From an uncultured delta proteobacterium (GTDB lineage: Bacteria > Myxococcota_A > Polyangia > Fen-1088): a stretch of DNA of 64,000 nucleotides. Shown here one piece after another: positions 1-5,887 of this stretch. A program made the translations under genes and the position numbers. The notes below the pieces were generated by a model. It searched no databases and had not been told where the DNA came from. It worked only from the letters and a program-made list of their open reading frames with translations. The DNA lies in assembly GCA_963796685.1 (NCBI GenBank), contig CAWCMR010000009.1, positions 160,001 through 224,000 on the forward strand, given 5' to 3'. Position 1 is the stretch's first letter; every line of letters begins with the position of its first letter.

Positions 1-204
1 CTGCCTACCTACGTGACGCTCAAAGAGGTGAAGCGCCGATGGGGTAATGCCCAGGAGGACGTCTATCCCCTCGCTCAATTCGAAGGTGCGAATGGAGGCG
101 CGTTCTACGTTCACGGCTCGCAGTCACGTGATGGCAGGTGCTGCCGATGCTCATTCCACCGGCGAAGTGAAATGATTGTTCCCGACATCAGCGACACGAG
201 CTGA
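1..204 (+). CDS. Possible 3' part of a hypothetical protein entering from the left edge
   Basis: Frame 1 is open from base 1 ([29 protein letters not shown]...). The first ~30 codons look protein-like; family not recognised. Confidence 0.3.
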
Positions 205-770
205 GCAGCACGCCCACCGAGTCCTTGCTCGTGATAACAAGATCCAGCCTGCCATCGCCGTTCAAATCGCCGAGCGCTACCCCAACCGCATAGCCCCCGG
301 CCAGATATTCCATCTCCGCCGCAAAGGTCCCGTCGTTGTGCCCAAGCCGGACGCTTACCGTGTCCGCATTTGCCGTGACGATGTCCACCCAACCGTCGCC
401 GTTCAAGTCACCCAAGGTCAACGAGCCATCCATTTCGTACCACGCGTTGTCCGCAAAGGTGCCGTCGCCGTTCCCGAGCAGCACGCTTTTCGTGGTGTCA
501 CCGATGATGACGTCCAGCTTGCCATCACCGTTCAAATCACCGAGCACCACCGCACCGGGAAAACCGCCGACTGGGTAGTCCACACTGTCGGCGAAAGTCC
601 CGTCCCCCCTCCATCACCCTTTTCCAAACAACGCGCCCACCGAGCTGCCGCTCTCGACGAGGAGGTCCAGCTTGCCGTCGCCGTTCAAGTCGCCCAGCAC
701 CAGGGAGGCTATCCCGCCTGGATAGTCGACCCTGTCGGCGAAGGTCCCGTCTCCCTTTCCAAGTAGCTCA
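188..770 (-). pseudogene. FG-GAP/VCBS repeat protein remnant (5'-truncated, in-frame TGA)
   Basis: Repeated GDLNGDGxLD and LGxGDGTF motifs in ORFs 614-832 and 188-583, which share a frame and are separated by TGA at 614-616 (LFGKG*WRGDGTFADSVDYP). No signal peptide or proper start. Confidence 0.8.
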
Positions 771-1316
771 GGTGGTGGTGGCCCGCAGCTCGGCCAGGTC
801 GAAAAGAGCGCCGGGAGAGTCGCAAGCAACATCGATCCATGACAGCAGGGTGTTTCTCTTTCCCGTGCCGGGAGCGGGCCACGGCGGTGGCGGCGCGAGG
901 TAGGACCCGTCGGGCTTGCGCATGTGCGAGCGATCCGAGGCCAGACCCGTCAGGTAGTCGGCCGCGGCAATGACCCGGAAGATGGGCCGGTGTCGCAAGT
1001 GGCGCGTGGGCGGAAAGGTCTCGTCTAGATAGCGGGCAAGCGGACAGGGAAAGGGAAGCTCCGAGTCCAGGTCGAGGGCCAGGCGCGTCCCGTCCGGATC
1101 CCCGACCATGGCGAAGACGTGGTAGTCCCAGCACACGAGCCCGTCCCCGGAGCGACCGGCCCTTTGGCGAAGCGCCACGATGTGGCCGGCCGGACTGGAG
1201 ACGATGACAGCCCACGCCTGGCGGCCTGCGAGCTCGCCGCGCACGAGCAGGCGCCAAACGTTCTCCTCGCAATAGCGAGCCTGGTAGTCGAGAGACAGCC
1301 GATCGATGCCGAGCAC
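768..1316 (-). CDS. Protein N-terminal glutamine amidohydrolase (NTAQ1/WDYHV1-like, Nt_Gln_amidase family)
   Basis: YCEENVW, WDYHV, DLDSELPFPC, FRVI, ASDRSHM and PPPPWP occur in the same order as in eukaryotic NTAQ1; Cys-His-Asp triad present. Start placed at GTG 1316 (ORF track extends to TTG 1346). Confidence 0.92.
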   Translation of the reverse strand: MLGIDRLSLDYQARYCEENVWRLLVRGELAGRQAWAVIVSSPAGHIVALRQRAGRSGDGLVCWDYHVFAMVGDPDGTRLALDLDSELPFPCPLARYLDETFPPTRHLRHRPIFRVIAAADYLTGLASDRSHMRKPDGSYLAPPPPWPAPGTGKRNTLLSWIDVACDSPGALFDLAELRATTT

Positions 1317-1328
1317 GAGGCAATCATA
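1317..1328 (-). promoter_or_regulatory. Putative sigma70 -10 box for a leaderless transcript
   Basis: TATGAT lies 6 nt before GTG 1316; no Shine-Dalgarno sequence. Confidence 0.45.
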
Positions 1329-1479
1329 CTGGATTATCCACACCAACCTGAACCCGACCGCCGATCCCGACGGCCTCGTCTACTGCATCATCGACTGCAC
1401 GATACCTCGGTGTTGCATCTACTGACCGCCGAGAGCACCTCGGGCTCGTTGCGGAGCGGCCAGCCCCTGCCGCCGCGGC

Positions 1480-2778
1480 TCAGAACTGGGTGATGAACTT
1501 CCAGGCTTCCGGGGCGTCCCAGCTCGTCGTCTGACCGGGATCCACCGGTTGCCATCCGTGCGGGCCGTTGAAAACGCAGTATTCGGTCGGGTGGCCCGCG
1601 GAGCATCCTTTGTAGATCGTGCAAGTGTGCGGCTGGCCGGCGGCTGGGTAGGTGGTGGACGCCGGCTCGGGTGTGCATCCGTTGACGGCGGCAAACTGGG
1701 CTTGCTTCATTTCCCCGGTCATGGGGTCGGTGGGTGACATGCCGTTGGCGTCCTGGCTCGCTTGCGACGCATAGTACGCAATCGGCTTGGTCAGAGTCGT
1801 GGGGCAGGAATTGGTGAGATCCGCTCCCGAGAAAAACGCGGCGGCGCGGAACACGTCCGCCCGCGTGCACGCGAGGGCCATGGCCATGGCCCCGCCAAAG
1901 CTGAAGCCCGTCGCGAAGATTCGGGTCGTGTCGATGCAGAGATCGCCTTCGATCTTGGCGAGGATCGTATCGGTGAACGCCACGTCCGTGTTGCTCCAGG
2001 AGCCGGCCCCGTTCGCGGCGTCGGGCGCGACGAAAATGGTGTTCTTGCTGTCGTAGGTTGCCATCGTGAAGTAATTCCTGGTTGCAACAGACTGGGCGGA
2101 TGATCCGGACTCGGCGAAGGCGAAGACCAGGCGATAGGGGTGGCTGTTGTCGTAGCTGCCGGGCACGAGCAGAATGTAGTTTCGCGCGGCGCCACTGTAC
2201 GTGATGTTGATGGTCCCGTTCTGAAGCGTCCGCGTCTTTCCACACCCCGCGCTTTGTGCCACACCGGCGTCAACGTCAGAGCTGCCAGAGCTGCCGCCCG
2301 ACCCACGTCCGGTCGCGCCGCCCGTACCAGAGCTGCTCGCGCCGCCCGTGCCAGAGTTGCTCGCGCCGCCCAATCCTCCATTGCCGCCGGAGGCTGTGGG
2401 CACCGTGCCCCCGGTGCCGGTCGCAGCGCCCCCAACGCCAGCGCCTCCCGAGCCCGATCGACCACCCGCACCCGCGCCACCGCTTCCCGGGCTGGTGCGC
2501 CCGCCGGTGCCATTCACTCCACCTGTTCCCGGTTGCGTGGTTCCACCGCTTCCCGTCGTTTCTCCCTGGCTGCCCCCCTGGCTGGGCGCGCCCCCGGTGC
2601 CATCCGCTCCACCCGTTCCCGATTGTCCACCGCTCCCAGTTGTTCCGCCTCGGCCGGGCACGCCGCCCGAGCCATGACTACCGCCACTTCCTGAAGGATG
2701 CGAGCTGCTCGATGAACAAGAAGTCCCAAGAATTGCGAGCACGGTCAGCATCGAATGGGCAAAACGCATAGGTGTCAT
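1480..2778 (-). CDS. Lipoprotein with Gly-rich tether and alpha/beta-hydrolase esterase domain (feruloyl esterase / PHB-depolymerase-like, CE1-like)
   Basis: AAGGAGG RBS before ATG 2778; lipobox-like LGTSC; long G/S/T linker; SAGCGK, nucleophile motif GFSFGG, C-terminal FNGPH. Confidence 0.85.
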   Translation of the reverse strand: MTPMRFAHSMLTVLAILGTSCSSSSSHPSGSGGSHGSGGVPGRGGTTGSGGQSGTGGADGTGGAPSQGGSQGETTGSGGTTQPGTGGVNGTGGRTSPGSGGAGAGGRSGSGGAGVGGAATGTGGTVPTASGGNGGLGGASNSGTGGASSSGTGGATGRGSGGSSGSSDVDAGVAQSAGCGKTRTLQNGTINITYSGAARNYILLVPGSYDNSHPYRLVFAFAESGSSAQSVATRNYFTMATYDSKNTIFVAPDAANGAGSWSNTDVAFTDTILAKIEGDLCIDTTRIFATGFSFGGAMAMALACTRADVFRAAAFFSGADLTNSCPTTLTKPIAYYASQASQDANGMSPTDPMTGEMKQAQFAAVNGCTPEPASTTYPAAGQPHTCTIYKGCSAGHPTEYCVFNGPHGWQPVDPGQTTSWDAPEAWKFITQF

Positions 2779-2829
2779 GAATGCCTCCTTGGCAAGAGCC
2801 AATGTGAAACGTCCGCGCAGCCGGTCGCA

Positions 2830-5391
2830 TTAGGGACTCGTCTTCAGACTGGCATAGGCCGGCTCTAGGCCCGCGGCGCTGACGATCGCCTGGGCGTCCA
2901 CGGGGAACGTGTCTCCACTGATGGCGATGTTGCCAGAAACCGTGTTGCCCGAGCCGCCAAGGCCGGGGCTGGCCGAGCTGCCCCAGTTGTTGGTGAACGT
3001 GATATGGCCGGTGTTATTGGTGGAATTCGCGTTCGCGGTAACGTAGGAACCAAAGTTCGCGTACACGTTCTTCGTTTCCGTGATGTAGGCAGAGCCTTCG
3101 TCATTGTACTCGCCCCAGAAGGTACCGGAAAGTCCGGAGCCCTTGCCCTCGCAGTAGTTCTGCGTAACGAGCGCCCCGGGTTGGAACCCCAGGTTGTAGT
3201 GGCACCCGCCGTCGTTCATCTGGAGCATACCCAGGTGGACGTAGTTGGCGCTGATCGTGTTGTTCTTGGCGACGGTCGGGTTCTGGTACAGGGGCTGGTA
3301 TTTGTAGAGATCGCCTGTCGCGCGCGTCTTGTAGTCGTTGTTGCCGCCCGCGTCGTTCGTGCCCCACCCGAGACCGCTCGCGATTCCTGAATACGGCAGG
3401 TTGTAGAGCTCGTTGTGCGACACGACCACGTTCGTCGTATAGGTGAACATGAGGCCGGCAAAGTCCCGGTAATCGATCCCGACGTCGTGGATGAGGTTGT
3501 CCTGGAGTGTCATGTTCTGGTTGACCAGCCGCGCCCCCGGATCGTTCGACGTGCATACCTTGTCGCCACACGGGTGGTGCGCCCACGCCTCTATCCCCCC
3601 GATTACGATCCCGCCGCCGGCGATCTGCGAGAATACGCAGCCGGTAACGTGGATGCCATTCGCCCCGAGCCCGACGCCCGTTGCGTTGGCGTTGGCATCG
3701 TTGCCGATCCCGAGCCCTACACTACCGAGCGCGACGAACCTGTCGCCCACGAACGAGATGTTGTACGCGTTCGACACTTGGACCGCGGCCGGCATTTGGT
3801 GCCAATGCGGCCGGGCGGCCTCGAACACGGGGGATTGGCCGCCGCCCGGGTAGTTGGACGTGGCCCCGACGAGGTACCCGCCCGTCTGCTGGTCGGCGAA
3901 TCCGTCGGCGGTATTGGGATGCAGCCAGCTCGTGCACGAGAACGTCAGGCCGCTGAAGGTGAGGTCGTGCGCCGGCTGTGCATAGGGGTCGCCCCCGGCC
4001 GGAGCCGCATATGGCACGGCCACCGTTGGGTCGCTGCCGGTTGGCTGGACGCAGTCCGCCCCGCCGGGCGGCGTGCCAGCGGGGCAATCGCCTCCCACCG
4101 CGAGGAGCAGTTGCAACTGCGGCAGCTCGACGTCGGCCGTGCTCATGTCCTGGCCGGAGAGCGGGATGTAGTAGAGCGCGCCGGCAGTCGTGTCCTGGTA
4201 CCATTCCCCGGGCTGGTCGAGGAGCGTGTAATCGTTCTCGACGTAGATGGGGCCCTGCCGATACGGGCTCTGAACCGTGTCATACCCCCAGGTGTTTTCG
4301 TTCCAGGCGGGCTGCTGCATGGTCACCGTACCGTTCGAGACGCTCTGGATCGGCGAGTACCGATTCGTCCACGAGCCGATGATGTTCAACTCGGCACGTT
4401 GCGGCTGGGCCAGATTGTTCAAATAGCTCAGGCTGTTGTTCGAAAACGTCCAGCCAGTGGTGCTCGCGCCATTGTTCGTCGACGGAAGCCCGTTCATGTC
4501 GGAGCGGCTGAGCGAAGACGAACGCGCGCGGGTGGCGAGCTTGCCGTCGACGTAGAGCTGCCGGGTGACAAAACTGCTCGGCGCCGTGGCCTTGTAGATC
4601 TTCTTGCCCGAATCGCTGACCGTCCATCCCGTGATCTTCTGCGCGCCCGAGAGCACCGGGTGAGCACCGGCCGCGGCCTGCCAGGTGACCGTGAAGCCAT
4701 TGGCTCCCGCGTCGGCCGCGGGGCCTGCCACCCCAGCCGCGGCGGGCGGCGAGTCGGCCGCGGTGAAGACCAACGGCGCCGTCAGGGTGTAGACCCCATC
4801 GGCGAGCTCGACGATGATGTCGCTTTGCAGGGTCTTGACGGCAGCCTGCACCACCGTCTGCGCTTGCGTGATCGAGCAGGGAGCGGAGCTGGTGCAATCG
4901 GTCCCGGTTCCGCTCGGTGAGACATAGTAGTGACCGCTCCCAGAGCCCGCGTCGGCGGGCCTGGCGCCAGCATCGGGTGCGCCGCCGCTGCCTGTGGCGC
5001 CACCAACTGCAGAAGCGCCGCCGCTGCCTGTGGCGCCACCAACTGCAGAAGCGCCGCCGCTGCCCGTAGCACCGCCGCTGCCCACGGCACCGCCGCTGCC
5101 CACGGCACCGCCACCGGTCGTGGCGCCGCCCGAGCCCCCAGCACCGCCGCTGCGCGTGGCGCCGCCCGAGCCCGCAGGTCCGCCGCCGCCCGTGCCGCCG
5201 CCCGACGACGCCACGCCCCCACTTCCGGCGCCGCCCGAGCCAGAATCTCCACCGCTGCTCACGCGACCACCGCGTCCACCCCCCGCACTGATGGCACCCC
5301 CGGCGGCCGATCCTCCGCCGGAGCTGCCGCCTCCGCAGCCCCAAAGAGCGAGAACAACTACCGACCCTGTGACAACTGCTGTTGATCGCAT
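2830..5391 (-). CDS. Lipoprotein with Gly-rich tether and right-handed beta-helix glycoside hydrolase (GH141-like)
   Basis: LWGC lipobox; YYVSPSG, ELADGVY.L..PL.F...DS, RQLYVDG..A.RAR, LLDQPGEWY, HNELYNLPYSGI..G.GW, DGG..Y, DEGS. Confidence 0.85.
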   Translation of the reverse strand: MRSTAVVTGSVVVLALWGCGGGSSGGGSAAGGAISAGGGRGGRVSSGGDSGSGGAGSGGVASSGGGTGGGGPAGSGGATRSGGAGGSGGATTGGGAVGSGGAVGSGGATGSGGASAVGGATGSGGASAVGGATGSGGAPDAGARPADAGSGSGHYYVSPSGTGTDCTSSAPCSITQAQTVVQAAVKTLQSDIIVELADGVYTLTAPLVFTAADSPPAAAGVAGPAADAGANGFTVTWQAAAGAHPVLSGAQKITGWTVSDSGKKIYKATAPSSFVTRQLYVDGKLATRARSSSLSRSDMNGLPSTNNGASTTGWTFSNNSLSYLNNLAQPQRAELNIIGSWTNRYSPIQSVSNGTVTMQQPAWNENTWGYDTVQSPYRQGPIYVENDYTLLDQPGEWYQDTTAGALYYIPLSGQDMSTADVELPQLQLLLAVGGDCPAGTPPGGADCVQPTGSDPTVAVPYAAPAGGDPYAQPAHDLTFSGLTFSCTSWLHPNTADGFADQQTGGYLVGATSNYPGGGQSPVFEAARPHWHQMPAAVQVSNAYNISFVGDRFVALGSVGLGIGNDANANATGVGLGANGIHVTGCVFSQIAGGGIVIGGIEAWAHHPCGDKVCTSNDPGARLVNQNMTLQDNLIHDVGIDYRDFAGLMFTYTTNVVVSHNELYNLPYSGIASGLGWGTNDAGGNNDYKTRATGDLYKYQPLYQNPTVAKNNTISANYVHLGMLQMNDGGCHYNLGFQPGALVTQNYCEGKGSGLSGTFWGEYNDEGSAYITETKNVYANFGSYVTANANSTNNTGHITFTNNWGSSASPGLGGSGNTVSGNIAISGDTFPVDAQAIVSAAGLEPAYASLKTSP
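4979..5104. repeat. Tandem repeats inside the Gly-rich linker (36-bp unit x2+, 18-bp unit x2)
   Basis: gcgccgccgctgcctgtggcgccaccaactgcagaa at 4979 and 5015; gcaccgccgctgcccacg twice from about 5069. Confidence 0.85.
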
Positions 5392-5578
5392 TCGTTTTGT
5401 GTCGAGCAGTGGCCTCAAGGCCTGAGTTCCATCATGTCGGCCTAGGGTTCTGCGCCCCGCTGGAACGCATGGAGAAACCAAGGGACGTATGCACGGGACA
5501 GGCAGGAGAATGCCAGGGTGCGTTGTGCGCACGGATGAACTATAATTGGACCGCGGCCGTGAAGGCGAAGGAGACACT

Positions 5579-5887
5579 GTGATGATGAGGTCCCTCGCGC
5601 TCGTCGGGTTGGCAGCAACCATGTTCTACTCGGGCTGTGCCCATGAAGGCCGGTGTGTTTGGGTCGACGGATCGGTGCGCACGGTGGCCGTCGATGCTCG
5701 GGCAGTTCGGGCGCGGCGGAACGTTCGGAAGAGCTACGCCGGAACCTGCAACAGATCACGCGTCCCTAGCCTCGGGTGCCGAGCAGCGACCTCCGCGGGC
5801 TGGTCCAGGACACGGCGGCCACGACGTTTTGCGTCCGCTGCGGCTTCCTGCTTGACTCGTAACCCTGACACTCTGGCGCCGTCCTGA
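5579..5887 (+). CDS. Putative small lipoprotein or gene remnant
   Basis: TATAAT at 5541-5546, AAGGAG at 5568-5573, then MMRSLALVGLAATMFYSGC (signal peptide plus lipobox). The downstream part looks degenerate. Confidence 0.4.
   Translation: MMMRSLALVGLAATMFYSGCAHEGRCVWVDGSVRTVAVDARAVRARRNVRKSYAGTCNRSRVPSLGCRAATSAGWSRTRRPRRFASAAASCLTRNPDTLAPS

What the first reader, a model, noticed from the sequence alone, without database searches (positions are those of the whole stretch)
768..1316. Bacterial homologue of the eukaryotic N-degron enzyme NTAQ1 (Nt-Gln amidase)
Seen: YCEEN, WDYHV, DLD, FRVI, ASDRSHM and PPPP are colinear with human NTAQ1, the Cys-His-Asp triad is intact, and there is no signal peptide. 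Known: NTAQ1 converts N-terminal Gln to Glu in the eukaryotic Arg/N-degron pathway; bacteria have Bpt (adds Leu to Nt-Asp/Glu), Aat and ClpS, and I know of no characterised bacterial Nt-Gln amidase step. Inference: this may provide a Gln -> Glu -> Leu -> ClpS/ClpAP branch in myxobacteria.
Basis: partly seen in the sequence, partly recalled or inferred. Interest (0 to 1): 0.75.

Follow-up and report, generated by a model that had tools for sequence, protein, structure and literature searches.

The report
Bacterial N-terminal glutamine amidase homologue
This myxobacterial gene encodes an intact-looking relative of the animal enzyme NTAQ1, which turns a protein's first-position glutamine into glutamate; it belongs to a scattered, unstudied bacterial branch of that family, and a role in protein degradation is possible but not shown.

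Summary
Window 768..1316 (-) encodes a 182-aa protein that matches Pfam Nt_Gln_amidase (141.8 bits, cut-off 27) and human NTAQ1 (E 4.8e-28). The predicted fold superposes on hNTAQ1 (TM 0.90). The Cys-His-Asp triad and all five human residues that hold the substrate's alpha-amino group are kept. The gene is under purifying selection (dN/dS 0.18-0.27).

It belongs to a patchy bacterial branch, present in 48 of 401 sampled Myxococcota and 17 of 151 genomes of one spirochaete order. The window's copy groups with Spirochaetota sequences, not with other myxobacterial ones.

The pathway idea is only partly supported. This genome has bpt, aat and clpS, each on a different contig. No locus links them to the amidase. 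Among Myxococcota carriers, 18 of 48 have Bpt against 103 of 353 non-carriers. Some single-contig genomes carry the amidase without Bpt. In the spirochaete order, all 17 carriers have either Bpt or a divergent second L/F-transferase.

I class it as a new member of a known family. The scan noted such homologues twice before on other DNA.

The parts
768..1316 (-). Coding sequence of the NTAQ1-family protein (182 aa, GTG start at 1316, stop codon 770-768)
   Evidence: ORF list and translation. Pfam PF09764 141.8 bits. Human NTAQ1 E 4.8e-28. Identical to collection protein P0002. Homologue N-termini align to this start.
1317..1346 (-). Possible 10-codon N-terminal extension (TTG at 1346, GTG at 1343); probably not translated
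   Evidence: translation. The 26-sequence alignment shows most homologues begin at the position of the 1316 start.
1257..1274 (-). YCEENV motif: catalytic Cys16 (codon 1271-1269) and Glu17, which equals human Glu29 of the alpha-amino water network
   Evidence: Alignment to 4w79. C16, E17, E18 and N19 are invariant in 26 bacterial sequences. Roles of the human residues from PMC4214742 section 11 and PMC11168063 passages.
1116..1130 (-). WDYHV motif: Asp64 and Tyr65 (= human Asp79/Tyr80, which bind the substrate N-terminus) and catalytic His66 (codon 1121-1119)
   Evidence: DNA read.
1065..1073 (-). DLD motif with catalytic Asp82 (codon 1073-1071) = human Asp97
   Evidence: (D82 invariant); DNA read.
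921..941 (-). ASDRSHM motif: His131 and Met132 = human His148/Met149 of the alpha-amino recognition site
   Evidence: (D128, R129, H131, M132 invariant).

Best explanation
The gene encodes a cytosolic, single-domain cysteine amidohydrolase of the NTAQ1 family. Like the human enzyme, it should hold the free alpha-amino group and backbone of a substrate's first residues with Glu17, Asp64, Tyr65, His131 and Met132. It should then use Cys16-His66-Asp82 to hydrolyse the side-chain amide of an N-terminal Gln, giving N-terminal Glu and ammonia. Methionine aminopeptidase does not expose Gln, so substrates would be fragments made by internal cleavage. This genome also holds a Bpt L-transferase, which in Vibrio vulnificus leucylates Nt-Asp/Glu, together with ClpS. 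Nt-Glu made here would therefore be expected to be leucylated and handed to ClpS/ClpAP, making Nt-Gln a tertiary destabilising residue in this organism. What is shown: homology, key residues, predicted fold, purifying selection, and presence of bpt, aat and clpS in the genome. What is inferred: the Nt-Gln activity itself, and every step downstream of it. The coupling to Bpt is not a property of the whole bacterial family.
For: Family membership and active site:
- Pfam 141.8 bits; human NTAQ1 E 4.8e-28.
- AlphaFold model pLDDT 93.1. Its 17 Foldseek matches at E<=0.001 (15 are printed) are all hNTAQ1, TMq 0.89-0.91, rmsd about 2 A, 34-35% identity. The next hit is a protein-glutaminase at E 0.02, TM 0.35.
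- The triad and the five alpha-amino/backbone-binding residues of hNTAQ1 are kept, and are invariant or >=90% conserved in 26 bacterial sequences.
- dN/dS is 0.18-0.27 against seven relatives.

Pathway parts in this genome:
- One ATE_C (92.8 bits) with ATE_N next to it, one Leu_Phe_trans and one ClpS.
- Bpt's Nt-Asp/Glu to Leu chemistry comes from passages of PMC9351520 and of preprint 10.1101/2021.07.26.453911.

Co-occurrence:
- Close relatives: 7 of 8 carriers have Bpt against 13 of 33 non-carriers.
- Spirochaete order: 9 of 17 carriers against 31 of 134 non-carriers (naive p 0.017). All 17 carriers have Bpt or a second L/F-transferase paralogue, against 90 of 134 non-carriers (naive p 0.003).
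Against: - No activity was measured.
- bpt, aat and clpS lie on contigs other than the amidase's.
- tblastn with this genome's own Bpt, Aat and ClpS found nothing at E<=1e-3 within about 6 kb of the amidase in 88 loci.
- No neighbour family recurs in more than 7 of 88 loci.
- Myxococcota sample: Bpt in 18 of 48 carriers (4 of these are weak ATE_C hits) against 103 of 353 non-carriers (odds ratio 1.46, naive p 0.24).
- Families f29, f43 and f50 carry the amidase largely without Bpt.
- The single-contig genomes G407 and G410, the complete Sulfidibacter corallicola genome and Acanthopleuribacter pedis have the amidase but neither ATE_C nor ATE_N.
- Inside the window's own genus, Bpt is common with or without the amidase: 5 of 5 carriers against 6 of 8 non-carriers.
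- All Fisher tests ignore relatedness, and many genomes are incomplete MAGs.
- Human Glu158, said to favour a basic second residue, is Ala here.
Confidence: 0.5

Rival explanations
1. It is a true Nt-Gln amidase, but its selected role does not depend on Bpt/ClpS. One example would be converting N-terminal Gln of cleavage products or imported peptides to Glu before it cyclises to pyroglutamate and blocks aminopeptidases. Another would be marking N-termini for some other reader. Any flow into Bpt would be incidental.
For: 30 of 48 Myxococcota carriers, and 17 of 50 carriers across phyla, show no Bpt. These include complete or single-contig genomes that lack both ATE_N and ATE_C. There is no genomic linkage to any N-degron gene and no conserved operon partner. 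Neighbours and fusions vary: ADP-ribosylglycohydrolase downstream in 3 loci, one PrmA-like methyltransferase fusion, and one unknown 190-aa N-terminal domain.
Against: No positive evidence exists for any particular alternative role; the pyroglutamate idea is my inference only. In the spirochaete order, every one of 17 carriers has a second aminoacyl-transferase (Bpt or Aat2), against 90 of 134 non-carriers. That points towards a transferase-coupled role.
Confidence: 0.3
2. The fold and triad are kept, but the substrate differs from that of eukaryotic NTAQ1. Candidates are a small Gln-containing metabolite or peptide, free glutamine, or N-terminal Asn.
For: Only 34-35% identity to the human enzyme. 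Human Glu158 is not kept. No NTAN1-type Asn amidase was found in 5 carrier genomes, though that search had no positive control.
Against: All five residues that hold the alpha-amino group and first peptide bonds in 12 hNTAQ1-substrate crystal structures are conserved across the bacterial branch. The strand that pairs with the substrate backbone (V-C-W-D-Y-H here, V-I-W-D-Y-H in human) is kept as well.
Confidence: 0.12
3. It is an exported glutamine-deamidase toxin or effector aimed at prey or host proteins, like the papain-fold deamidases of pathogens.
For: It has a papain/transglutaminase-like Cys-His-Asp fold (PMC10318531 passages). It occurs in predatory groups (Myxococcota, Bradymonadales). 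The neighbouring genes in the window look secreted.
Against: There is no signal peptide and no room for one. It is a 182-aa single domain with no delivery or targeting domain. It has no immunity-like conserved neighbour. It is also present in Spirochaetota, Planctomycetota and Acidobacteriota.
Confidence: 0.03
4. It is a recently transferred gene that is decaying or idle in this genome.
For: Patchy presence: 4 of 12 other genomes of the genus. No synteny within the genus. It groups with Spirochaetota sequences.
Against: The frame is intact and every key residue is kept. dN/dS is 0.18-0.27. Its GC content (0.68) matches its surroundings (0.60-0.74).
Confidence: 0.05

Closest known systems
Human/mouse NTAQ1 (WDYHV1, C8orf32; protein N-terminal glutamine amidohydrolase; PDB 3C9Q, 4W79, 6KGJ, 8JJF-8JK2) and its arthropod orthologues ('tungus')
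   Same: Same Pfam family, collinear motifs, Cys-His-Asp triad, alpha-amino-binding Glu/Asp/Tyr/His/Met, and the same predicted alpha-beta-alpha fold (TM 0.90). Similar size: 182 against about 205 aa.
   Different: 34-35% identity. Bacterial host with no ubiquitin system, ATE1 or UBR. Human Glu158 is replaced by Ala. The C-terminal tail is shorter. Activity is untested. The downstream partner, if any, would be Bpt/ClpS rather than ATE1/UBR.
Bacterial Leu/N-degron pathway (Aat, Bpt, ClpS-ClpAP; Nt-Asp/Glu secondary residues in Vibrio vulnificus)
   Same: This genome has one copy each of bpt, aat and clpS. The amidase's expected product, Nt-Glu, is a Bpt acceptor (passages).
   Different: No amidase step has been described for this pathway in the papers I searched. 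There is no gene linkage. Many amidase carriers lack Bpt.
Yeast Nta1 and metazoan/plant NTAN1 (the other N-terminal amidases)
   Same: Same kind of reaction: deamidation of an N-terminal amide residue by a Cys nucleophile (PMC7022378 passages).
   Different: Unrelated folds: nitrilase for Nta1, and a distinct alpha-beta sandwich for NTAN1. No NTAN1 match in 5 carrier genomes (no positive control).
Protein-glutaminase of Chryseobacterium proteolyticum (PDB 2KSV, 2ZK9, 3A54)
   Same: Distantly similar papain/transglutaminase-like fold and Cys-His-Asp triad; deamidates Gln.
   Different: Only a marginal structural match here (E 0.02, TM 0.35). It is secreted with a pro-peptide and acts on internal Gln of proteins.

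Membership tests
Pfam PF09764 Nt_Gln_amidase / NTAQ1 family | Sequence match above the curated family threshold over the whole domain | tested here: met
   141.8 bits against a cut-off of 27, profile positions 1-181 of 184. phmmer to human NTAQ1 chains gives E 4.8e-28.
Pfam PF09764 Nt_Gln_amidase / NTAQ1 family | Catalytic triad Cys28-His81-Asp97 (human numbering) | tested here: met
   Cys16, His66 and Asp82 are aligned and invariant in 26 bacterial sequences. The triad is defined in PMC4214742 section 11 and PMC7022378.
Pfam PF09764 Nt_Gln_amidase / NTAQ1 family | Residues that recognise the free alpha-amino group and first backbone atoms (human Glu29, Asp79, Tyr80, His148, Met149) | tested here: met
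   Glu17, Asp64, Tyr65, His131 and Met132 are aligned. Four are invariant and Asp64 is >=90% conserved in the bacterial alignment. Roles from PMC11168063 passages.
Pfam PF09764 Nt_Gln_amidase / NTAQ1 family | Three-layer alpha-beta-alpha fold of hNTAQ1 | tested here: met
   Predicted model pLDDT 93.1, pTM 0.91. Foldseek against 8jjg: E 2.3e-16, TMq 0.90, rmsd 2.1 A. This is a prediction, not a solved structure.
Pfam PF09764 Nt_Gln_amidase / NTAQ1 family | Nt-Gln-specific deamidation (EC number 3.5.1.122 recalled, not from a call) | not testable with these tools
   Needs an enzyme assay.
N-degron pathway component (tertiary-residue step upstream of an aminoacyl-transferase and an N-recognin) | Downstream transferase for Nt-Glu and an N-recognin in the same genome | tested here: met
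   G000 has ATE_N+ATE_C (Bpt) on C22, ClpS on C15 and Aat on C1.
N-degron pathway component (tertiary-residue step upstream of an aminoacyl-transferase and an N-recognin) | Co-inheritance with the transferase across genomes | tested here: inconclusive
   Myxococcota: 18 of 48 carriers against 103 of 353 non-carriers (naive p 0.24). Spirochaete order: 9 of 17 against 31 of 134 (naive p 0.017), and 17 of 17 against 90 of 134 if Aat2 is counted. Complete genomes carry the amidase without Bpt. None of the tests is corrected for relatedness.
N-degron pathway component (tertiary-residue step upstream of an aminoacyl-transferase and an N-recognin) | Gene linkage or operon with bpt, aat, clpS or clpA | tested here: not met
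   No tblastn hit for Bpt, Aat or ClpS within about 6 kb in 88 loci. No neighbour family is present in more than 7 of 88 loci.
N-degron pathway component (tertiary-residue step upstream of an aminoacyl-transferase and an N-recognin) | Nt-Gln shortens protein half-life in an amidase-, transferase- and ClpS-dependent way | not testable with these tools
   Needs reporter-stability experiments.

The most novel reading that the evidence does not exclude
Some bacteria run a three-tier N-degron hierarchy like that of eukaryotes. N-terminal Gln would be a tertiary destabilising residue, deamidated by this NTAQ1-type enzyme. The resulting Nt-Glu would be leucylated by Bpt, or in Treponema-like spirochaetes perhaps by the divergent L/F-transferase paralogue that replaces Bpt there. 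The product would then be degraded through ClpS-ClpAP. If so, the amidase step of the eukaryotic Arg/N-degron pathway has a working bacterial counterpart and possibly a bacterial origin.
Probability: 0.3. Interest if true: 0.75.

Novelty: new member of a known kind. Interest (0 to 1): 0.45.

Why it matters
[quoted passage not shown] The amidase tier is treated as eukaryotic. A conserved bacterial NTAQ1 branch with all substrate-binding residues intact gives a concrete gene for testing whether bacteria also use N-terminal Gln as a conditional degradation signal.

My comparative data sharpen that test. Bpt-bearing lineages, such as this genus, Polyangium and Enhygromyxa, should show the effect. 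Bpt-less carriers, such as Sulfidibacter and Acanthopleuribacter, should reveal whatever other role keeps the gene.

The family's scattered, transfer-prone distribution is also relevant to where the eukaryotic enzyme came from. My trees do not resolve that question.

Tried and rejected
- **Complex prediction (collected).** The amidase with this genome's Bpt gave no verdict (median score under the mark, controls not run). This is neither for nor against binding.
- **Sequencing runs.** No RNA holder was listed, and only small-share DNA holders (0.05-0.10 of words). I did not lay reads, so there is no statement on expression or habitat.
- **Direction of transfer.** Both trees nest the window clade inside Spirochaetota. 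An AU test did not reject spirochaete monophyly (p 0.64). The constrained tree was in fact 19 log-likelihood units better than the short free search (one search had not finished). I therefore claim grouping only, not direction.
- **Eukaryote-bacterium relationship.** Only arthropod sequences came with names. A look-up of ten representative clusters returned no organism names. Deep branches are unsupported, so I make no claim on origin.
- **Aat2 as an amidase-specific partner: rejected.** It occurs in 8 of 17 carriers and 60 of 134 non-carriers. The two cases where it seemed to sit just outside an amidase locus turned out to be on different contigs.
- **Synteny within the genus.** The window's flanking genes lie on other contigs in G010 and G001. 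No insertion site could be defined.
- **NCBIfam.** No family matched.
- **Promoter/terminator scan.** Nothing above the shuffled expectation.
- **Composition.** No GC anomaly.
- **Earlier notes on this genome or on look-alike sequence.** None.
- **Wang et al. 2009, the original NTAQ1 paper.** Not held. Anything about it here is recalled, not read.
- **Supplementary files.** None were consulted.
Full report
**1. What is there**

On the minus strand, an ORF runs from a GTG at 1316 to a stop codon at 770-768 and encodes 182 aa. A TTG at 1346 would add ten residues. The 182-aa form is the one on record in the public protein collection (P0002, on a 425-kb contig). In an alignment of 26 bacterial relatives, most proteins begin at that position.

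The protein matches Pfam PF09764 (Nt_Gln_amidase) at 141.8 bits (E 2.3e-41, curated cut-off 27), over profile positions 1-181 of 184. NCBIfam has no model for it. Against the sequences of solved structures, the only matches at E<=0.001 are 15 distinct human NTAQ1 sequences (E 4.8e-28 to 1.2e-26; three further rows have E 0.05-0.8).

**2. Active site and fold**

Counting along the alignment:

| Human residue | Window residue (182-aa numbering) | Role |
|---|---|---|
| Cys28 | Cys16 | catalytic |
| His81 | His66 | catalytic |
| Asp97 | Asp82 | catalytic |
| Tyr111 | Tyr96 | hydrogen bond to Asp97 |
| Glu29, Asp79, His148 | Glu17, Asp64, His131 | water network around the substrate's alpha-amino group |
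| Tyr80, Met149 | Tyr65, Met132 | further hydrogen bonds to the substrate N-terminus |

- The triad is defined in PMC4214742 (section 11 read) and in passages of PMC7022378.
- The alpha-amino recognition roles come from the 12 hNTAQ1-substrate structures (passages of PMC11168063).
- The strand that pairs with the substrate backbone is V-I-W-D-Y-H in human and V-C-W-D-Y-H here.
- In the bacterial alignment, C16, E17, Y65, H66, D82, H131 and M132 are invariant, and D64 and Y96 are at least 90% conserved.
- One difference: human Glu158, proposed to favour a basic second residue, aligns with Ala.

An AlphaFold model built on the 26-row alignment has mean pLDDT 93.1 and pTM 0.91. Its 17 Foldseek matches at E<=0.001 (15 are printed) are all hNTAQ1 entries (E about 1e-16 to 1e-15, TMq 0.89-0.91, rmsd about 2 A, 34-35% identity). 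The next hit is protein-glutaminase at E 0.02 and TM 0.35.

The catalytic Cys is residue 16, so there is no room for a signal peptide. I read this from the sequence and ran no predictor.

Nei-Gojobori dN/dS against seven relatives is 0.18-0.27, so the gene is under purifying selection.

**3. Distribution**

- A word-indexed search found 338 relatives at E<=0.001 among 783 candidates. The best 120 all carry PF09764 and are at least 54% identical. Many are already named 'protein N-terminal glutamine amidohydrolase' by JGI's automatic annotation. The two NCBI names shown are Polyangia and Spirochaetales bacteria.
- A full HMMER pass over 1.84 billion 50%-identity representatives gave 1,937 clusters at E<=0.001 and 1,206 at E<=1e-10, eukaryotes included.
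- A pattern-seeded scan of one genome per prokaryotic species found 124 relatives. This is a lower bound, because only two peptide patterns were used.
- Of the 80 loci kept from that scan, record titles place 28 in Myxococcota, 20 in Spirochaetota, 7 in Planctomycetota, 6 in Pseudomonadota, 5 in Acidobacteriota, 1 in Lentisphaerota and 1 in Melainabacteria; 12 are unplaced.
- Cultured carriers include Polyangium fumosum DSM 14668, Polyangium sp. 6x1, Enhygromyxa salina SWB005, Sulfidibacter corallicola M133 and Acanthopleuribacter pedis KCTC 12899.
- By whole-genome Pfam search, the family is in 8 of 41 close relatives including this genome, and in 4 of the 12 other genomes of the genus. It is in 48 of 401 sampled Myxococcota, or 35 of 255 genera, and in 17 of 151 genomes of the spirochaete order around G043. 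It is in none of 14 control genomes.

**4. Phylogeny**

Two trees were built.
- The FastTree run used 231 rows. Seven of 238 were dropped for covering fewer than 130 profile positions.
- The IQ-TREE run (LG+C20 PMSF, short search) used 92 rows: 84 chosen from the 231 to span the clades, plus 8 named arthropod sequences.

Both trees place the window's protein and its same-genus copies in a clade with SH-like support 99. That clade sits with Treponemataceae/Rectinemataceae sequences (supports 97-98), away from the copies of other Myxococcota such as Polyangium, Sandaracinus and Nannocystaceae. It also sits away from the copies in G034 (same class) and G014 (same family). This indicates transfer between phyla.

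The direction is open. An AU test does not reject a tree in which the 16 spirochaete rows form one clade (p 0.64).

Within the genus, the flanking genes of the window lie on other contigs. GC content is unremarkable.

Named arthropod NTAQ1 sequences form a supported clade (95) inside a group of unnamed representatives. Deep branches are unresolved. I could obtain names only for arthropods, so I make no claim about which domain the family came from.

**5. Test of the pathway idea**

*Own genome.* There is one Bpt, with ATE_C at 92.8 bits and ATE_N at 64.1 bits side by side on contig 22. There is one Aat on contig 1 and one ClpS on contig 15. The amidase is on contig 9. Bpt adds Leu to Nt-Asp/Glu (passages of PMC9351520, and of preprint 10.1101/2021.07.26.453911). 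The proposed chain is therefore chemically possible here.

*Linkage.* In 88 amidase loci with up to 6 kb on each side (853 selected ORFs), the most widespread neighbour family occurs in 7 loci. tblastn with this genome's Bpt, Aat and ClpS finds nothing at E<=1e-3.

*Co-occurrence.*

| Sample | Feature | Amidase carriers | Non-carriers |
|---|---|---|---|
| 41 close relatives | Bpt | 7 of 8 | 13 of 33 |
| Own genus | Bpt | 5 of 5 | 6 of 8 |
| 41 close relatives | ClpS | 8 of 8 | 27 of 33 |
| 50 carriers across phyla | Bpt | 33 of 50 (32 over cut-off) | not sampled |
| 50 carriers across phyla | ClpS | 48 of 50 | not sampled |
| 50 carriers across phyla | Aat | 48 of 50 | not sampled |
| 401 Myxococcota | Bpt | 18 of 48 | 103 of 353 |
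| 151 spirochaete-order genomes | Bpt | 9 of 17 | 31 of 134 |

- The 50 carriers were 50 of the 80 loci, because the tool takes at most 50 per call. I chose them before seeing any result.
- ClpS is near-universal in the relatives (35 of 41 overall), so its co-occurrence carries no information.
- In Myxococcota the odds ratio is 1.46, naive Fisher p 0.24. Four of the 18 are weak ATE_C hits.
- Three Myxococcota families (f29, f43, f50) hold most Bpt-less carriers.
- The single-contig genomes G407 and G410, the complete S. corallicola genome and A. pedis lack both ATE_C and ATE_N.
- In the spirochaete order the odds ratio is 3.7, naive p 0.017.

These tests ignore relatedness, and many genomes are incomplete MAGs.

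My reading is as follows. The Gln->Glu->Leu->ClpS route is expected to run in this genome if both enzymes have their family activities. The bacterial family as a whole is not tied to Bpt.

**6. A by-product: a second L/F-transferase in spirochaetes**

In the spirochaete order, 68 of 151 genomes show a second, divergent Leu_Phe_trans match, which I call Aat2 (58-83 bits, core of about 250 aa; for example L096:2003-2749). My proxy is two or more matches, or a single weak one, so it may include a few duplicates or split genes.

- Aat2 and Bpt almost never coincide: 1 genome has both, 39 have Bpt only, 67 have Aat2 only and 44 have neither (naive p 1.6e-11).
- All 17 amidase carriers have one or the other, 9 with Bpt and 8 with Aat2, against 90 of 134 non-carriers (naive p 0.003).
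- Aat2 alone is not enriched among carriers (8 of 17 against 60 of 134).
- It is not near clpS. In two loci it follows an NMO/FabK-like gene.

Whether Aat2 stands in for Bpt is an open lead and may simply reflect lineage structure.

**7. What is known and what is new**

Six full-text searches found no paper that describes or assays a bacterial NTAQ1 homologue. I read passages of PMC10318531, PMC4214742, PMC11441550, PMC7022378, PMC11168063, PMC9351520 and one preprint. Reviews and structure papers treat the amidase tier as eukaryotic. The original Wang et al. 2009 paper is not held, and no supplements were seen.

Automatic annotation already gives the enzyme name to bacterial members. This scan noted such homologues twice before on other DNA: e1-927892, in a myxobacterium with an FHA partner, and e1-692384, in Planctomycetota. 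No FHA or other conserved partner appears at this locus or among my ten most frequent annotated neighbour families.

I therefore class the finding as a new member of a known family. It carries an untested but directly testable physiological question.

**8. Verdict**

- The protein is an NTAQ1-family member with an intact active site: about 0.95.
- It is an Nt-Gln-specific amidase: about 0.8.
- In this genome, its product feeds Bpt and ClpS: about 0.5 overall.
- That route is the reason the family is kept in bacteria generally: unlikely on present data.

Noticed in passing
L092:2320-3423(+), L094:1948-2967(+), L096:2003-2749(+) (spirochaete genomes G043, G049, G050): A divergent second Leu/Phe-tRNA-protein transferase paralogue (PF03588 at 60-66 bits in these three loci, 58-83 bits over the order; the canonical copy scores about 225-250). 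It occurs in 68 of 151 genomes of one spirochaete order and is almost mutually exclusive with Bpt (1 overlap). It follows an NMO/FabK-like gene in two loci. It could be a stand-in for Bpt.
   Followed up: partly
P0210, P0230 (unnamed 50%-identity cluster representatives): The NTAQ domain is fused behind a shared N-terminal domain of about 190 aa (46% identity over the full length). P0210 gives only a sub-threshold MMACHC match (18.8 bits, E 0.0013, cut-off 27).
   Followed up: partly
P0140 = L029 (Spirochaetaceae MAG), about 401 aa: The NTAQ domain is fused to a C-terminal PrmA / Methyltransf_16-like protein methyltransferase domain. This is a single instance. It would pair two protein-modifying activities.
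   Followed up: no
L024:5901-7418(+) and two further Treponemataceae loci; P0129: An ADP-ribosylglycohydrolase fused to a dual-specificity phosphatase domain lies directly downstream of the amidase, on the same strand, in 3 loci. P0129 reads as a truncated NTAQ joined to ADP_ribosyl_GH, probably by read-through or frameshift.
   Followed up: no
L017 (MAG titled Acidobacteriaceae; G044): It carries a copy 80% identical to the window's protein. The MAG shows no ClpS, Aat or Bpt, and my ORF call gives only 148 aa there. The contig may be mis-binned, or the copy may be broken.
   Followed up: no
window 188..583 (-): A 131-aa ORF made of three FG-GAP-like repeats (PF13517 at 74.7 bits), with no room for a leader. 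It may be a fragment of a larger repeat protein.
   Followed up: no
window 1480..2802 (-) and 2830..5622 (-): Two large genes with long Gly/Ser-rich N-terminal regions follow leader-like starts. One is an esterase / dienelactone-hydrolase-like protein and the other a protein with a GH141 insertion domain. Their homologues lie on different contigs in same-genus genomes.
   Followed up: partly
G000 contig 22 (L002:1180-1968, +): This genus's Bpt is only 29-35% identical to the Bpt of most other Myxococcota sampled and 43% identical to that of G021. The transferase may therefore also have a mixed history.
   Followed up: no
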